64,000 nucleotides of DNA from Anaerolineae bacterium (GCA_027021705.1 JALUTT010000120.1:7702-71701), one strand, 5' to 3'; shown: positions 35,267 through 38,623, counted from the first letter of the stretch. Made by a program: numbers and translations. The notes: generated by a model not told the origin, from the sequence alone.

Positions 35267-36754
35267 ATGAGCACGCTTAAAATCTTCGCCCTGGAACTGA
35301 CCGTCGGCCCGGCCTCCTCCCCCGGCCACTACCCCGTCACCGCCCGGGGGCTCTCCGGCGGCGCCCGTGCCACGATGGTCCTCGATTCCAACGACCCTGA
35401 CTTCCGCGCTGCCCTCACCGCCATCGAGCAAGATGCCACCGACGAGGACCTCTTCCTCAACTTTGGCCGTCGCCTCTTCAACGCCCTCTTCACCGGCCCC
35501 GTCGAGGACGCCTACCGCGCGGCCCTGGGCTACGCCAAGGGGCAGGGGGGGAAGCTGCGGCTGCGGCTGCGGTTGGGCCAGGCCCCCGAGGTTGCCGCCC
35601 TCCCCTGGGAATACCTCTACGACCCTCAGCGGGACCTCTTCCTCGCCATCGCCACCGACACCCCCCTCTCCCGCTACCTGGACGTGGAGCAACTCTTCCC
35701 CGGCCCCCCGCCGGCCGAGCCCCCGCTGCGGGTGCTGCTGGTCCTCTCCAATCCGGCGGACCTGGACGACTACGGCCTCCCCCCCCTCTCGGTGGACCGG
35801 GAGCGCCGGGTGGTGGAGGAGGGGCTGGCCGCGCTGCGCCGGGAGGGGCAAGTGGAGCTGCAGGTGCTGACCCAGGCCCGGCGGGCGGCCATCAGCGAGG
35901 CGATGCGGCGCTTCCGGCCCCACGTCTTCCACCTGGTGGGGCATGGGGCCTTTCGGCGAGGGCGGGGGGTGGTGCTGCTGGAGCGGGAGGATGGGCGGGC
36001 CTGGATGGTGAGCGACCGGGCCTTTCGGGAGTTCTTCCAGGACCGGCCGGAGACGCGGCTGGTGGTGCTGAACGCCTGCCAGGGGGCGACGCGGGATGGT
36101 GGGGAGGCGCTGGCGGGGCTGGGGCCTCGGTTGGTGCAGCGGGGGGTGCCGGCGGTGGTGGCGATGCAGTACGCGGTGCGGGATGGGGCGGCGGTGGACT
36201 TTGCGCGGGAGTTCTACCGGGTGCTGGCGGGGTGGGCACCGGTGGATGTAGCGGTGACGGAGGGGCGGCGGGCGGTCTACCTGGACTACGGGGTGGAGCA
36301 GCGGGATTGGGGGGTGCCGGTGCTGCTGATGCGGGACCCCGATGGCCTCCTCTTCCTGCCGCCGGAAGCCGAGCAGCCTGAGGCCGAGACGGCTGCTCCA
36401 CCGACGGGAGGGGTCCAGATCCACATTGGAGAGGTCCGCGACGCTTCCGTCTCCATCGGCGATGTCGCCGGCCGGGACATCCACAAGACGACGTCGCCGG
36501 CCGGGGCGGCGTCGCCTCCCACCGGTCGCCTGGCCGACCTGGAGGATCTTATCCGTGAGGTCTACGGCCTGCTGCGGGAGTACGAGGAGGTTCTCATCCT
36601 CACCGATGATCCGAAGGAACGGCTGCGGGCGCGCCGGCGTATCGAGGAACAGCGCACCCTCCTCCGGCGCTACCTATCGGAGTACCGGCAGCTGGCCCAG
36701 CGGTTGGGCCGACCCGTTCCGCCGGAGATCCAGGAGATGCTGTCCCTATGGTAG
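35267..36754 (+). CDS. CHAT-domain (caspase-like) protease with a C-terminal extension carrying a GDVAGRDI module
   Basis: CHAT His/Cys dyad contexts HVFHLVGHGAF and LVVLNACQGA. The C-terminus contains [27 protein letters not shown]. Stop overlaps the next gene's ATG (ATGGTAG). Confidence 0.8.
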   Translation: MSTLKIFALELTVGPASSPGHYPVTARGLSGGARATMVLDSNDPDFRAALTAIEQDATDEDLFLNFGRRLFNALFTGPVEDAYRAALGYAKGQGGKLRLRLRLGQAPEVAALPWEYLYDPQRDLFLAIATDTPLSRYLDVEQLFPGPPPAEPPLRVLLVLSNPADLDDYGLPPLSVDRERRVVEEGLAALRREGQVELQVLTQARRAAISEAMRRFRPHVFHLVGHGAFRRGRGVVLLEREDGRAWMVSDRAFREFFQDRPETRLVVLNACQGATRDGGEALAGLGPRLVQRGVPAVVAMQYAVRDGAAVDFAREFYRVLAGWAPVDVAVTEGRRAVYLDYGVEQRDWGVPVLLMRDPDGLLFLPPEAEQPEAETAAPPTGGVQIHIGEVRDASVSIGDVAGRDIHKTTSPAGAASPPTGRLADLEDLIREVYGLLREYEEVLILTDDPKERLRARRRIEEQRTLLRRYLSEYRQLAQRLGRPVPPEIQEMLSLW

Positions 36755-37710
36755 AACAGAGCTACTTCGACCGGGTGCTCAAGATTCTGGCCCGCAACCA
36801 CGCCGACGCCTTCCTGCGGCTCGCCTTTCCCCACCGCCCCGTCCGCTTGCTCGGCACCGTCGAGAACGTCGAGATTGACCTGCCCGCCCAGCGGGTGGAC
36901 TTCGTCCACCAGATCGAGGACGAGGGGACCGAAAAGCTCCTCCACCTGGAGTTCCAGACCCGCCACGAGCCGGACCTCCCCCGGCGGCTCTTCGTCTACT
37001 CCGGCGCCCTCACCCGCCGCTTCGACCAGGAGGTGCTGACCTTGGTGCTCTACCTGGAGCGGCGCCACCGGGTGCCGCCAGGGGTGTACGAGACCCGGCT
37101 GGGGGGCGAGGTGGTCAACCGCTTTCGGTATCCGACGGTGGGGCTGTGGGAGCACGAGGGGCGGATACGGAGCGGGGAGTTGCGGGCCTTGGCTCCGCTG
37201 CTGGTGGTGGTGGCCGAGGAGCGAGACGAGGGGGTGTTGGCGGAGGAGCGGCGGCTGATCCTGGAGGAGCGGGATGAGCGGCGGCGGGCGGAGTTGTTGG
37301 CGGCGGCGGTGACGGTGGCGAGCCGATACTTTGAGCGAGACTTTCTGTGGGACTTCTTCCGAGAGGAGGTGGAGATGATGCGAGGGAGCAGCTTCATCGA
37401 GGAGTGGATCGAGGAAGGCATCCGCAAGGGGAGGGAGGAGGGGATGCGTGAGGGGCTTCAGCAGGGGCTTCAGCAGGGGCTTCAGCAGGGGCTCCAGCAG
37501 GGGCTCTTGCAGGCCCGGCGAGAGGCTATCATAGATGTGCTGGTGACCCGCTTCGATCCCACCTACCGGTACCTCCGGGCGTTGGAAGCACGCCTGGAGC
37601 GCATCGGGGACCTGGGGACGCTGCGCGAACTGGTGGGCCTGGCTGCCCAGGTGGAGAGCCTGGAGGCTTTCCAAGAGCACCTGGACGCTCTCGGCGATCA
37701 GACCGGGTAG
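36748..37710 (+). CDS. Rpn/YhgA-family PD-(D/E)XK nuclease (Transposase_31-like) with a DUF4351-like C-terminal domain
   Basis: VDFVHQIEDEGTEKLLHLEFQTRHE matches the Rpn D...ExQ core. The C-terminal IEEWIEEGIRKGREEGMREGLQQGLQQGLQQGLQQGLLQARREAIIDVLVTRF resembles DUF4351 with its Q/G repeats. Confidence 0.7.
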   Translation: MVEQSYFDRVLKILARNHADAFLRLAFPHRPVRLLGTVENVEIDLPAQRVDFVHQIEDEGTEKLLHLEFQTRHEPDLPRRLFVYSGALTRRFDQEVLTLVLYLERRHRVPPGVYETRLGGEVVNRFRYPTVGLWEHEGRIRSGELRALAPLLVVVAEERDEGVLAEERRLILEERDERRRAELLAAAVTVASRYFERDFLWDFFREEVEMMRGSSFIEEWIEEGIRKGREEGMREGLQQGLQQGLQQGLQQGLLQARREAIIDVLVTRFDPTYRYLRALEARLERIGDLGTLRELVGLAAQVESLEAFQEHLDALGDQTG

Positions 37711-37714
37711 CTGG

Positions 37715-38623
37715 GTGGCTTCTACCCCGTTCCTCGCGATGACGGCATACGTAGATTGGTTCGTAGACCGCGAAAAGCAGTTCCAGGGCTTCCTCAAGAT
37801 GGTCGCCCGGGAGACGGAGAAGCAGGTGATGCTCGTCCAGGCTCCGGCCGAGATGGGCAAGACCTGGCTCATCCAGCGGCTGCGCCACGAGTGTCGCAGC
37901 CGGGGCATTCCCGTCGCCCACTTCGACTTCCGGGACCGTCGGCCCTGGGACTACCTGACCATCGTCCGGCAGGCCCGCGATCAGCTTGGCCCCGCCTACT
38001 TCAACCCGATGACCCAGGTGATCAACGCCTCGACGGGCGTCAACGTCCAGATCACCACGGGGGCCGGCGCCGGCGGCGTGGACCTCTCCATCGCCGAGGC
38101 GGGCGGCCAGGTCGTCGAGAGCGAGGTCGCCGTGGGCGACGTGGCCGGCCGCGACATCATCAAGGACAACTTTTTCTTCGTCCAGGCCGATAGCGAGACC
38201 GCCCGCCGGACCATTGAGATCCGCATCACCGACGCCTTCTTCGCTTGCCTGGAAGCCCTTTGCCGGGAGCAGGTTGTGGCTTTTCTCTTCGACTCCTACG
38301 AGGATGTGACCGAGGAGGCGGATCGCTGGCTGCAGGCCCACCTGTTGGCGCGGGTGCGCGATGGTCTCCTCCCCAACCTCGTCATCGTCCTGGCCGGGCG
38401 GGAAGTCCCCCAGTTCGATACCTCCTGGCGTCACTGTCTGGCCCGCACGGGCCTTCACCCCTTCGACAAGGAGGATGTCGTCGAGTACATCGTGCGCAAG
38501 CGGGGGCTGACCGACCTGGACCTGGAGACCATCTACCGCACCTCCGGGGGCCATCCGGGCCTTTTGGGCAAGATGGCCGACATCGCAGCCCTGGAGAGCG
38601 AGGAGGACGAGGACTGGCTGTGA
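37715..38623 (+). CDS. Small P-loop NTPase with STAND-like motifs and an inserted GDVAGRDI module
   Basis: Walker [17 protein letters not shown], Walker [13 protein letters not shown], possible sensor [10 protein letters not shown] and a GxP-like SGGHPGLLG. The insert [31 protein letters not shown] sits between Walker A and B. Starts 4 nt after the Rpn stop. Confidence 0.6.

What the first reader, a model, noticed from the sequence alone, without database searches (positions are those of the whole stretch)
35267..38623. Candidate novel three-gene conflict system: CHAT protease, Rpn-family PD-(D/E)XK nuclease (DUF4351-like tail) and a small STAND-like NTPase
Three genes are tightly coupled: the CHAT stop overlaps the Rpn ATG, and the NTPase starts 4 nt after the Rpn stop. 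They encode a caspase-like CHAT protease with its H/C dyad intact, an Rpn/YhgA-type nuclease, and a 302-aa P-loop NTPase with Walker A, an hhhhDxxED Walker B and a GxP-like motif but no sensor repeats. CHAT proteases, PD-(D/E)XK nucleases and STAND/AAA NTPases are each recurrent components of anti-phage systems such as type III-E Craspase, gasdermin activation and Avs/bNACHT. I do not recognise this particular tripartite arrangement as a named system. Its own promoter plus tandem-repeat leader, and its position between unrelated housekeeping genes (an ABC importer and ahcY), fit an inserted defence cassette.
Basis: partly seen in the sequence, partly recalled or inferred. Interest (0 to 1): 0.85.

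Follow-up and report, generated by a model that had tools for sequence, protein, structure and literature searches.

The report
Split CHAT–NTPase system interrupted by Rpn gene
The three adjacent genes are real but are two unrelated things: a caspase-like protease and its NTPase switch from a conserved Chloroflexota system whose usual third gene (a giant membrane TPR protein) is missing here, with an independently mobile Rpn toxin–antitoxin nuclease gene inserted between them.

Summary
The three ORFs, their overlaps and their catalytic motifs are confirmed. The proposed CHAT–Rpn–NTPase triad is not a system.

In 28 other Chloroflexota lineages that encode this NTPase family:
- none has an Rpn gene beside it;
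- 27 of 27 with downstream sequence have a homologous giant protein (1,000–1,775 aa, TPR plus 6–9 TM segments) directly downstream;
- 11 have a CHAT gene directly upstream.

Natural fusions (CHAT–NTPase, NTPase–TPR, CHAT–NTPase–TPR) confirm those three as partners, which makes a split NLR-like module. CHAT tails and an insert in the NTPase share a co-varying ~30-aa beta-type motif, probably a homotypic adaptor.

The window's lineage alone lacks the giant partner, yet its NTPase is under very strong purifying selection (omega 0.03).

The middle gene is a divergent Rpn-family nuclease with the published hallmarks:
- a PD-(D/E)XK core;
- a variable 4-aa (GLQQ) repeat;
- an internal SD+ATG for a small C-terminal protein;
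- movement as a single gene.

Its homologs sit singly among housekeeping genes. A ~91%-identical sister strain has deleted the nuclease half and kept only the small C-terminal ORF.

Verdict: a composite locus. The Rpn part belongs to a known kind. The CHAT/NTPase/TM-TPR system is an apparently unnamed variant of NLR-like systems. Moderate interest.

The parts
35124..35252 (.). Array of about 18 CCTTGCA-like heptamers in the 238-bp spacer upstream of CHAT. Specific to this lineage; role unknown.
   Evidence: TRF period 14/28; sequence; identical in L042/L043 but absent upstream of CHAT in other loci.
35267..36754 (+). CHAT (caspase-like) protease, 495 aa. CHAT domain at residues 66-342. Catalytic His226 (35942-35944) and Cys271 (36077-36079).
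   Evidence: Pfam PF12770 at 3.2e-33; H226 and C271 invariant in 13 family members.
36407..36487 (+). Shared beta-type motif in the CHAT tail (residues 381-407, [27 protein letters not shown]).
   Evidence: The same motif is in every adjacent CHAT tail and every NTPase insert, and in nothing else among about 2,200 ORFs. Cognate pairs are more alike than non-cognate pairs, p=0.0007.
36488..36751 (+). Extra helical C-terminal tail of CHAT (residues 408-495). Absent from most family members.
   Evidence: Alignment of CHAT proteins. omega 0.185 for the C-terminal 147 codons, which span this tail, against L006.
36748..37710 (+). Rpn-family PD-(D/E)XK nuclease gene (RpnL-like, 320 aa). An independent single-gene insertion. 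Core residues D51 (36898-36900) and H66-L-E68-F-Q70 (36943-36957).
   Evidence: 559 homologs, many with DUF4351 or named Rpn. 15 of 20 family members hit TIGR01784. Model hits only PD-(D/E)XK folds. Singleton contexts. DNA homology confined to the ORF.
36771..37360 (+). Nuclease-domain segment that is deleted in sister strains L006/L007 and replaced there by 84 bp of short repeats.
   Evidence: blastn and alignment.
37375..37710 (+). Predicted internal ORF for a small RpnS-like antitoxin protein (111 aa). SD GGAGG at 37365-37369, ATG at 37375/37378. Contains the GLQQ 4-aa repeat (37451-37505).
   Evidence: Sequence. Survives as a stand-alone 117-aa ORF in L006 with omega 0.15. Repeat copies: 4 here, 5 in L006, 0 to about 8 in homologs. 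TRF. Paradigm in PMC10400941.
37715..38623 (+). Small AAA+/STAND-like NTPase (the NOD module), 302 aa from the GTG or 294 aa from ATG 37739. Walker A 37841-37864, Walker B 38273-38305, AGR 38393-38401, GGHPGLL 38546-38566, invariant acidic C-terminus EDEDWL 38603-38620.
   Evidence: Family alignment. 143 close and 2,305 distant relatives. AF2 model with pTM 0.70 and AAA+/ORC/mS29 fold hits. omega 0.034.
38072..38170 (+). Motif-bearing insert between Walker A and Walker B of the NTPase (residues 120-152, [33 protein letters not shown]). Predicted disordered in the monomer.
   Evidence: (pLDDT below 50 for residues 110-153).
38624..38706 (.). 83-bp spacer with GACCA-type short repeats, at the position where every other lineage has the giant TM-TPR gene. 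ahcY starts at 38707.
   Evidence: Sequence; TRF 38638-38685. The giant gene is present in 27 of 27 other lineages, and no homolog exists in the 64-kb window.

Best explanation
The locus is a composite of two independent modules.

(1) CHAT (35267-36754) and the small NTPase (37715-38623) are the effector and the nucleotide-switch (NOD) parts of a split NLR-like system conserved across Chloroflexota. Its constant third part is a giant integral-membrane TPR protein encoded directly downstream. That gene is missing in this lineage.

Proposed mechanism:
- The TM-TPR protein acts as sensor or scaffold.
- On a cue, the NTPase binds or hydrolyses NTP and oligomerises.
- Its disordered, motif-bearing insert then pairs homotypically with the identical motif on the CHAT tail. 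This could be beta-augmentation or amyloid-like templating, as in BASS-type signalling.
- The pairing concentrates and activates the caspase-like protease, which cleaves unknown targets.

Shown: gene linkage, natural fusions, motif sharing and co-variation, conserved catalytic residues, and strong purifying selection. Inferred: every biochemical step, and the biological role (defence or regulated cell death).

(2) The middle gene is a self-contained Rpn-family toxin with an intragenic antitoxin. The full-length PD-(D/E)XK nuclease (RpnL-like) is restrained by a small C-terminal protein (RpnS-like) translated from the internal SD+ATG at 37375. The GLQQ repeat number would set pairing specificity. 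The gene landed, as Rpn genes do, as a single ORF spliced into the CHAT-NTPase operon. In a sister strain the toxin half has since been deleted and the antitoxin-like ORF kept.
For: Not a triad:
- Rpn lies next to the NTPase in 0 of 28 other lineages.
- Rpn homologs are singletons among housekeeping genes.
- Rpn DNA homology to L013 (87%) is confined to the ORF, with no shared flanks.
- L006/L007 keep the CHAT 3' end, the first 23 nt of rpn, the last 117 codons and the NTPase, but lack the nuclease half.

True partners:
- The giant homologous ORF lies downstream in 27 of 27 lineages, with 6-9 TM segments.
- CHAT is adjacent in 11 of 28.
- Fusions exist: CHAT-NTPase (P0243, P0249, P0264), NTPase-TPR (P0269) and CHAT-NTPase-TPR (P0302).

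Motif:
- It is present only in CHAT tails, NTPase inserts and one small upstream protein.
- Cognate pairs score above non-cognate pairs, p=0.0007.
- It is degenerate or lost in the three CHAT-NTPase fusions, and the two copies co-vary in P0302.
- The insert is disordered in the model.

Activity: H226 and C271 are invariant. Walker A and B are invariant. omega is 0.034 for the NTPase, against 0.06-0.12 for neighbouring housekeeping genes.

Rpn identity:
- Invariant D51 and H66-x-E68-x-Q70.
- TIGR01784 hits 15 of 20 members.
- PD-(D/E)XK fold hits.
- Core motifs align in register with E. coli RpnA.
- Variable 4-aa repeats, an internal SD+ATG, and a hypervariable C-terminal half (dS 1.13 against 0.064 for the nuclease half).
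- These features match PMC10400941.
Against: - No experiment supports any step.
- The window's own Rpn protein is below the curated TIGR01784 cut-off and does not hit DUF4351 significantly. hhalign to single-sequence RpnA is weak, E=0.047. The RpnA-S structure was not recovered by sequence or fold search.
- The NTPase keeps the motif in lineages with no CHAT nearby, so recruiting CHAT cannot be the motif's only role.
- The NLR-side motif is internal rather than N-terminal as in described BASS pairs.
- NTPase hits to STAND Pfam models are all below gathering thresholds, and the fold hits are generic AAA+ with TM about 0.43.
- The family is unusually conserved (50-70% identity across orders), and its neighbours are mostly housekeeping genes. 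That fits a defence system poorly.
- All three genes are translationally coupled, so they are probably co-expressed here. Some lineage-specific functional cross-talk cannot be excluded.
Confidence: 0.78

Rival explanations
1. A genuine lineage-specific three-gene system. After the TPR partner was lost, the Rpn nuclease was co-opted as effector or sensor of the CHAT-NTPase pair.
For: Start/stop overlap and a 4-nt gap imply co-transcription and translational coupling. This lineage is the only one that both lacks the giant partner and has Rpn.
Against: The sister strain deleted the nuclease domain while the NTPase stayed under omega 0.03. The 83%-identical Rpn in L013 is equally tightly spliced between metH and a Band_7 gene, so tight coupling is a property of Rpn insertions. 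No fusion or co-occurrence was found anywhere.
Confidence: 0.06
2. The CHAT/NTPase/TM-TPR module is not an immune system. It would be a housekeeping or developmental membrane-associated proteolytic switch of filamentous Chloroflexota, comparable to the role of the CHAT protein HetF in cyanobacterial cell division and differentiation.
For: Very high conservation of the NTPase (50-70% identity across orders; omega 0.034, stricter than the ahcY, gmd and epimerase genes). Mostly housekeeping neighbours. The NCBIfam HetF model gives a partial hit on CHAT. No PADLOC hits for the NTPase or the giant partner.
Against: - The distribution looks patchy: 25 loci in a pattern-limited scan of 185,579 species genomes.
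- Genomic positions vary, and one copy is flanked by transposases and an integrase.
- The effector is modular: CHAT is present, absent or replaced, and an extra trypsin-endonuclease protein occurs in L003.
- The architecture and the shared-motif logic are typical of conflict systems.
- In this lineage, other defence-type genes lie nearby.
Confidence: 0.25
3. The window's CHAT-NTPase pair is a decaying remnant that became non-functional once the TPR partner was lost.
For: The giant partner is absent here but present in 27 of 27 other lineages. An 83-bp repeat-rich scar sits where it should be. A mobile gene has been inserted into the operon.
Against: Both ORFs are intact with their catalytic residues. 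Since the split from L006 (dS about 0.22) the NTPase has accumulated 41 synonymous but only 5 non-synonymous changes (omega 0.034), and the CHAT C-terminal 147 codons have omega 0.185. That implies continued function, perhaps with a partner encoded elsewhere.
Confidence: 0.1
4. The middle gene is a transposase or insertion sequence rather than a toxin-antitoxin nuclease.
For: Source annotations read 'predicted transposase YdaD'. It appears mobile and the copy is polymorphic between strains.
Against: There are no inverted repeats, target duplications or shared flanks; homology ends inside the ORF. The published analysis of the family finds no evidence of autonomous transposition.
Confidence: 0.04

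Closest known systems
Rpn (YhgA-like) toxin with intragenic antitoxin, RpnL/RpnS, in E. coli and others (Zhong et al. 2023, PMC10400941)
   Same: - N-terminal PD-(D/E)XK core with a D...ExQ signature.
- C-terminal helical domain carrying 4-aa repeats whose number differs between strains (4 against 5 GLQQ).
- Internal SD+ATG in frame.
- Hypervariable C-terminal half.
- Gained and lost as a single gene without IRs or TSDs.
   Different: - A divergent Chloroflexota/cyanobacterial branch with a DUF4351-type tail.
- This copy is below the TIGR01784 cut-off.
- The predicted small protein is about 111 aa, against about 49 aa for RpnA-S.
- It is spliced into an unrelated operon.
- Toxicity, the antitoxin role and phage defence are untested.
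Bacterial NLR-like / STAND systems with protease effectors (Avs, bNACHT, CHAT-NOD-TPR architectures; from my own knowledge of that literature)
   Same: Effector-NOD-repeat logic. A P-loop NTPase with intact Walker A and B and a GxP-like motif. TPR repeats as the presumed sensor. A caspase-like effector. Single-chain fusions of all three parts exist (P0302).
   Different: - The system is split into three polypeptides.
- The NOD is a minimal protein of about 295 aa that matches no Avs or bNACHT model in PADLOC.
- The repeat protein carries a central block of 6-9 TM segments.
- The NOD carries an internal shared motif.
BASS / amyloid-signalling gene pairs (Dyrka et al. 2020 bioRxiv 10.1101/2020.01.06.895854; Bab/Agp, 10.1101/2024.11.07.622273)
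   Same: A short G/V/I-rich, beta-prone motif of about 25-30 aa with pseudo-repeats. It sits at the C-terminus of an effector (CHAT effectors are among the published cases) and again in the adjacent, collinear NLR-like gene. Cognate copies are more alike than non-cognate ones. Found in filamentous or multicellular phyla.
   Different: The receptor-side motif is an insert inside the NTPase domain, not at the N-terminus. It matches no motif text I could search. Amyloid formation is untested. The motif persists where no CHAT is nearby.
iSTAND / iSTAND2 ternary systems (Kaur et al. 2020, PMC7159879; 2021, PMC8195603)
   Same: Weak Pfam iSTAND hit (E=1e-3). Caspase-like peptidases and adaptor ('EAD') logic. 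Enrichment in multicellular bacteria, including Chloroflexi.
   Different: Those systems are built around a MoxR-vWA pair and a catalytically inactive STAND. Here there is no MoxR or vWA in any locus, and Walker A and B are invariant.
TPR-CHAT (Craspase) and SAVED-CHAT proteases of type III CRISPR/CBASS-like systems
   Same: The same CHAT protease fold with a His/Cys dyad. PADLOC SAVED_CHAT gives a partial hit (5e-16) on the CHAT core.
   Different: No gRAMP, CRISPR, SAVED or cyclase genes. The activator is an NTPase rather than RNA or a cyclic nucleotide.

Membership tests
Rpn family (TIGR01784 / COG5464) | Profile match at the curated threshold | tested here: inconclusive
   The window protein scores 30.5 bits (E=3e-7) against a cut-off of 52.1. 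15 of 20 aligned homologs hit the model, best 2.9e-19. Several homologs are named Rpn family by NCBI.
Rpn family (TIGR01784 / COG5464) | N-terminal PD-(D/E)XK nuclease core with conserved acidic and ExQ residues | tested here: met
   D51 and H66/E68/Q70 are invariant. The AF2 model (pLDDT 86.8) hits only restriction-endonuclease-fold proteins, E from 4e-3 to 0.2. Motifs align in register with E. coli RpnA, although E=0.047.
Rpn family (TIGR01784 / COG5464) | Variable C-terminal domain with 4-aa repeats whose number differs among strains | tested here: met
   GLQQ occurs 4 times in the window, 5 times in L006, and 0 to about 8 times in homologs. C-terminal half dS is 1.13 against 0.064 for the nuclease half, versus L013.
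Rpn family (TIGR01784 / COG5464) | Small RpnS protein translated from an internal start site that neutralises RpnL | not testable with these tools
   Sequence prerequisites are present: GGAGG lies 5 nt upstream of the in-frame ATG at 37375, and M211 is about 90% conserved. A stand-alone ORF from this start is kept under omega 0.15 in L006. Translation and antitoxin activity need experiments.
Rpn family (TIGR01784 / COG5464) | Gain and loss as a single gene, without IRs or TSDs and with variable ends | tested here: met
   Homology to L013 is confined to 36765-37691. Singleton contexts. Agrees.
STAND / NLR-like NTPase | P-loop NTPase with intact Walker A, Walker B and an arginine/sensor motif; AAA+-type fold | tested here: met
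   G48, K49, D193 and G228 are invariant; E196 and R229 are nearly invariant. Fold hits to RFC, ORC/Cdc6 and mS29, E about 1e-4, TM about 0.43.
STAND / NLR-like NTPase | Match to a STAND-clade profile (NACHT, NB-ARC, AAA_16, ATPase_2) at the curated threshold | tested here: not met
   All hits are below gathering scores: ATPase_2 23.3 against 33.2, iSTAND 19.8 against 24, NACHT 15.1 against 26.7. So this is STAND-like, not a member of a named STAND family.
STAND / NLR-like NTPase | Tripartite effector-NOD-repeat organisation | tested here: met
   Met at family level through conserved gene order and fusions. In the window itself the repeat component is absent.
iSTAND ternary system (Kaur 2020) | Adjacent MoxR AAA+ and vWA genes | tested here: not met
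   None in the annotated loci. The window's vWA_CoxE gene lies 10 kb away on the other strand with no MoxR next to it.
iSTAND ternary system (Kaur 2020) | Catalytically inactive NTP-binding motifs | tested here: not met
   Walker A and B are invariant.
BASS-type amyloid signalling pair | The same short motif in the effector C-terminus and in the adjacent NLR-like protein, with cognate copies most alike | tested here: met
   (permutation p=0.0007, 9 loci). The fusions lose the motif.
BASS-type amyloid signalling pair | Receptor-side motif at the N-terminus of the NLR | tested here: not met
   The motif is an insert between Walker A and Walker B, residues 120-152.
BASS-type amyloid signalling pair | Motif forms amyloid fibrils or templates the effector | not testable with these tools
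   Only composition (G/V/I-rich) and predicted disorder in the monomer are available.
CHAT peptidase (PF12770) | Profile match above threshold and a His/Cys dyad | tested here: met
   115.8 bits against a cut-off of 24. H226 and C271 are invariant.
Named anti-phage systems in PADLOC-DB v2 | Component HMM hits consistent with a defined system | tested here: not met
   The only notable hit is a partial SAVED_CHAT hit on the CHAT core; there are none for the NTPase or the giant partner. DefenseFinder could not be run.

The most novel reading that the evidence does not exclude
The CHAT / mini-NOD / TM-TPR module is an undescribed, Chloroflexota-wide, membrane-anchored split NLR. A co-evolving, BASS-like motif embedded inside the NTPase domain, rather than at a terminus, would transmit activation to a caspase-like protease by homotypic, possibly amyloid-like, pairing. 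In the window's lineage the system would work with its sensor encoded in trans or not at all.
Probability: 0.3. Interest if true: 0.65.

Novelty: new variant of a known kind. Interest (0 to 1): 0.4.

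Why it matters
The result corrects a tempting mistake. Tight operon coupling of three 'defence-flavoured' genes does not make them one system. Rpn genes in particular splice themselves into unrelated operons with start/stop overlaps, so they can create false multi-gene 'systems' in genome scans.

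The locus also offers two useful things:
1. A natural toxin-deletion allele of an Rpn gene in which only the RpnS-like ORF is kept under purifying selection. This is independent evolutionary support, from a distant phylum, for the intragenic-antitoxin model.
2. A well-delimited, apparently unnamed split NLR-like system: CHAT, a 295-aa NOD and a giant TM-TPR protein. Its adaptor motif is internal and co-evolving, and fusion proteins provide a built-in control. It would be a compact model for how bacterial NLR-like switches recruit caspase-like proteases.

Tried and rejected
- iSTAND ternary system: rejected. There is no MoxR or vWA, and the Walker motifs are active.
- Known PADLOC systems: no system-level match.
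- Sequence search of the PDB with the Rpn protein and with its family profile: nothing meaningful, and RpnA-S (7TH0) was not recovered. Foldseek gave only weak PD-(D/E)XK hits.
- hhalign against single-sequence E. coli RpnA: weak, E=0.047.
- Search for a TM-TPR partner from the window's lineage with the last deep protein search: none found. The search was word-limited and saturated by generic TPR proteins, so the result is inconclusive.
- The only TPR-like match in the window (52010-54493) is a TPR-SLT transglycosylase, which is unrelated.
- Sigma-70 promoter and terminator scan: nothing found.
- Heptamer 'leader': not conserved at other loci.
- Rpn paralogs in the window: none.
- Literature search for the motif string and for a named CHAT/STAND/TPR Chloroflexi system: nothing found.
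- Several 'upstream ORFs' from my mechanical ORF caller (L017, L019) were high-GC artefacts and were ignored.

Full report
OBSERVATION

The three ORFs are exactly where stated: 35267-36754 (495 aa), 36748-37710 (320 aa) and 37715-38623 (302 aa), all on the + strand.
- The CHAT stop and the next ATG overlap by 7 nt.
- The third ORF can start at a GTG 4 nt after the second stop. Most homologs and the sister-strain gene call begin at the ATG at 37739.
- In a 66%-GC genome long ORFs arise by chance, but all three have strong homologs, so they are real genes.
- CHAT is solid: Pfam 3e-33, with His226 and Cys271 invariant across the family.
- The NTPase has invariant Walker A and B residues, AGR and GGxPGLL.
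- PADLOC gives no system-level hit.
- No sigma-70-type promoter or terminator is detected in 34800-38800.
- The upstream 'leader' is an array of about 18 CCTTGCA-like heptamers. It is specific to this lineage.

THE NTPase AND ITS REAL PARTNERS

The NTPase belongs to a uniform family of proteins about 290-300 aa long, 50-70% identical, from Chloroflexota. A profile search of 1.84 billion representatives finds 2,305 relatives at E<=1e-3.

I gathered 28 independent non-window lineages and tabulated their neighbours.
- A mutually homologous giant ORF (1,000-1,775 aa) lies directly downstream in 27 of the 27 lineages that have downstream sequence.
- A CHAT gene is directly upstream in 11, and somewhere in the locus in 13.
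- An Rpn-like gene is present in none.

The giant protein has N- and C-terminal TPR or helical regions around a conserved block of 6-9 predicted TM segments.

Natural fusions confirm the partnership: CHAT-NTPase (P0243, P0249, P0264), NTPase-TPR/TM (P0269) and CHAT-NTPase-TPR/TM (P0302). No fusion involves Rpn.

The AF2 model of the NTPase (pTM 0.70) has a confident AAA+ core. It matches clamp loaders, ORC/Cdc6 and the STAND-clade mS29 at E about 1e-4. Pfam hits to ATPase_2, iSTAND, NACHT and AAA_16 are all below threshold.

The module is therefore a split effector-NOD-repeat (NLR-like) system, and the NOD does not belong to a named STAND family.

The window has no homolog of the giant partner anywhere in its 64 kb. 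The same is true of its ~91%-identical relatives L006/L007, where ahcY also follows the NTPase.

A SHARED, CO-EVOLVING MOTIF

A roughly 30-aa element, GGVxIxI...GGxVxxSxIxIGDVAG(R/G)(D/H)IxK, occurs in three places:
- in every NTPase, as an insert between Walker A and Walker B;
- in the C-terminal tail of nearly every adjacent CHAT;
- at the N-terminus of a small non-CHAT protein upstream in L027.

It occurs in nothing else among about 2,200 ORFs from these loci.

Further properties:
- The insert is predicted to be disordered in the monomer.
- Cognate CHAT/NTPase copies are more alike than non-cognate ones: mean BLOSUM 70.7 against 44.6, permutation p=0.0007, 9 loci.
- In the three CHAT-NTPase fusions the motif is degenerate or lost on both sides. 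It is intact in NTPase-TPR. In the triple fusion the two copies carry the same variant.

This is the logic of BASS or EAD-type homotypic adaptors, and CHAT effectors are among the published BASS cases.

Two differences matter. The receptor-side motif is internal rather than N-terminal. The NTPase also keeps the motif where no CHAT is nearby, so the motif probably also mediates NTPase self-assembly or recruits effectors encoded elsewhere.

The NTPase additionally has an invariant acidic C-terminus, D(D/E)DWL-COOH. I speculate that it docks on the TPR partner. This is inference only.

THE MIDDLE GENE IS AN INDEPENDENT Rpn MODULE

It has 559 homologs. Many carry DUF4351 or are named Rpn family or 'transposase YdaD' by their sources.
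- 15 of 20 aligned members hit NCBI's Rpn model TIGR01784 (best 2.9e-19). The window copy itself is below the cut-off.
- D51 and H66-x-E68-x-Q70 are invariant.
- The AF2 model (pLDDT 86.8) matches only restriction-endonuclease-fold proteins, weakly.
- The core motifs align in register with E. coli RpnA, although at E=0.047.

Homologs sit singly among housekeeping genes. They include an 83%-identical one that overlaps both of its neighbours, metH and a Band_7 gene, by 4 nt.

DNA homology between that copy and the window (87%) is confined to 36765-37691, inside the ORF, with no shared flanks.

The gene shows the published Rpn hallmarks (PMC10400941):
- A block of 4-aa repeats whose number varies: GLQQ x4 here, x5 in L006, 0 to about 8 in homologs.
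- A strong internal SD (GGAGG) 5 nt upstream of the in-frame ATG at 37375, at a nearly invariant Met.
- A hypervariable C-terminal half. Against L013, dS is 1.13 there and 0.064 in the nuclease half.

Sister strains L006/L007 are decisive. They retain the CHAT 3' end, the first 23 nt of rpn, and the last 117 codons as an intact ORF starting from that same SD+ATG, followed by the NTPase. The nuclease half (about 36771-37360) is replaced by 84 bp of short repeats.

The surviving small ORF has omega 0.15. This is what is expected of an orphaned antitoxin after toxin loss.

Metagenome contigs that carry the window's exact CHAT gene break inside the rpn gene. That fits a polymorphic or multi-copy element.

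SELECTION

Window against L006:

| Gene or region | omega |
|---|---|
| NTPase | 0.034 (41 synonymous, 5 non-synonymous changes) |
| CHAT C-terminal 147 codons | 0.185 |
| RpnS-like ORF | 0.153 |
| ahcY | 0.057 |
| gmd | 0.074 |
| epimerase | 0.121 |

Loss of the cis TPR gene predates the split between these strains. The NTPase nevertheless remains under very strong constraint, so the pair is not decaying.

COMPARISON WITH KNOWN SYSTEMS
- Not an iSTAND ternary system: there is no MoxR or vWA, and the Walker motifs are active.
- Not Craspase or SAVED-CHAT: only the CHAT core is shared.
- Not Avs or bNACHT according to the PADLOC models.
- The closest logic is an NLR-like system with a BASS-type adaptor.
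- The Rpn gene is a new, divergent member of a known kind.
- I found no paper that contains the motif or names this arrangement. Absence from the searchable library is not proof of novelty.

VERDICT

The sequence observation is largely right. The locus is a composite: a truncated split NLR-like CHAT/NOD pair, with an Rpn toxin-antitoxin gene inserted between its two genes.

Whether the CHAT/NOD/TM-TPR module is an immune system or a conserved regulatory protease switch remains open. Its high conservation and housekeeping neighbourhoods argue for caution. Interest is moderate (0.4). The novelty class is a new variant of a known kind.

Noticed in passing
window 44922-46112 and 46125-46607 (+): A two-gene pair about 6 kb downstream of the NTPase. 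The first gene is a 397-aa AAA_15/AAA_21 ATPase that matches PADLOC candidate defence families PDC-M55A (5e-54), HEC-03B (8e-54) and NsnB (3e-49). The second is a 161-aa partner that weakly matches HEC-03A. So there is a second defence-type element in the neighbourhood.
   Followed up: partly
L006 6596-7357; the corresponding empty site is at window ~43446-43460: The sister strain carries a 253-aa nucleotidyltransferase-HEPN fusion (PADLOC PDC-S09/PDC-M05 hits) between gmd and the phosphomannomutase gene. It is absent from the window, so this is a second presence/absence polymorphism of a conflict-type gene between these strains.
   Followed up: partly
window 41155-43446 (+): The GDP-mannose 4,6-dehydratase gene (763 aa) is interrupted by an intein with a LAGLIDADG homing-endonuclease domain. 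This rests on Pfam hits recorded for the L006/L007 ortholog.
   Followed up: no
window 32122-32237 and 33357-33472: A 116-nt direct repeat (90% identical) sits in two intergenic spacers of the peptide ABC-transporter operon. It is probably a small dispersed intergenic repeat element.
   Followed up: no
window 38638-38685; L006 463-545: Short GACCA-type repeat DNA that shares 'GACCAAGTGAC' occupies two sites: the spacer where the TM-TPR gene is missing in the window, and the spot where the Rpn nuclease half is deleted in L006. It may mark how deletions are repaired or filled in this lineage.
   Followed up: partly
window 35124-35252: An array of about 18 CCTTGCA-like heptamers lies upstream of CHAT. 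It is identical in the metagenome contigs L042/L043 and is not found upstream of CHAT elsewhere. Its function is unknown.
   Followed up: partly
L003 2356-5778: In one relative, a 1,140-aa Trypsin_2 + Endonuclease_1 protein sits 8 nt upstream of CHAT. It is a possible additional effector of the system and lacks the shared motif.
   Followed up: no
L018 9261-10004: A 247-aa paralog of the NTPase (36% identical) is encoded between CHAT and the NTPase. It appears to lack an intact Walker A and has no GDVAGRD motif. It may be an inactive regulatory copy.
   Followed up: no
window 48469-50598 (-): A 708-aa VWA_CoxE-domain protein with no MoxR ATPase beside it; the neighbouring gene is a methyltransferase.
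   Followed up: partly
window 36488-36751; L021 and L026 CHAT tails: Some CHAT proteins carry an extra helical domain of 85-100 aa after the shared motif. The window's version differs in sequence from the L021/L026 versions. It could be a further adaptor or effector-associated domain.
   Followed up: no
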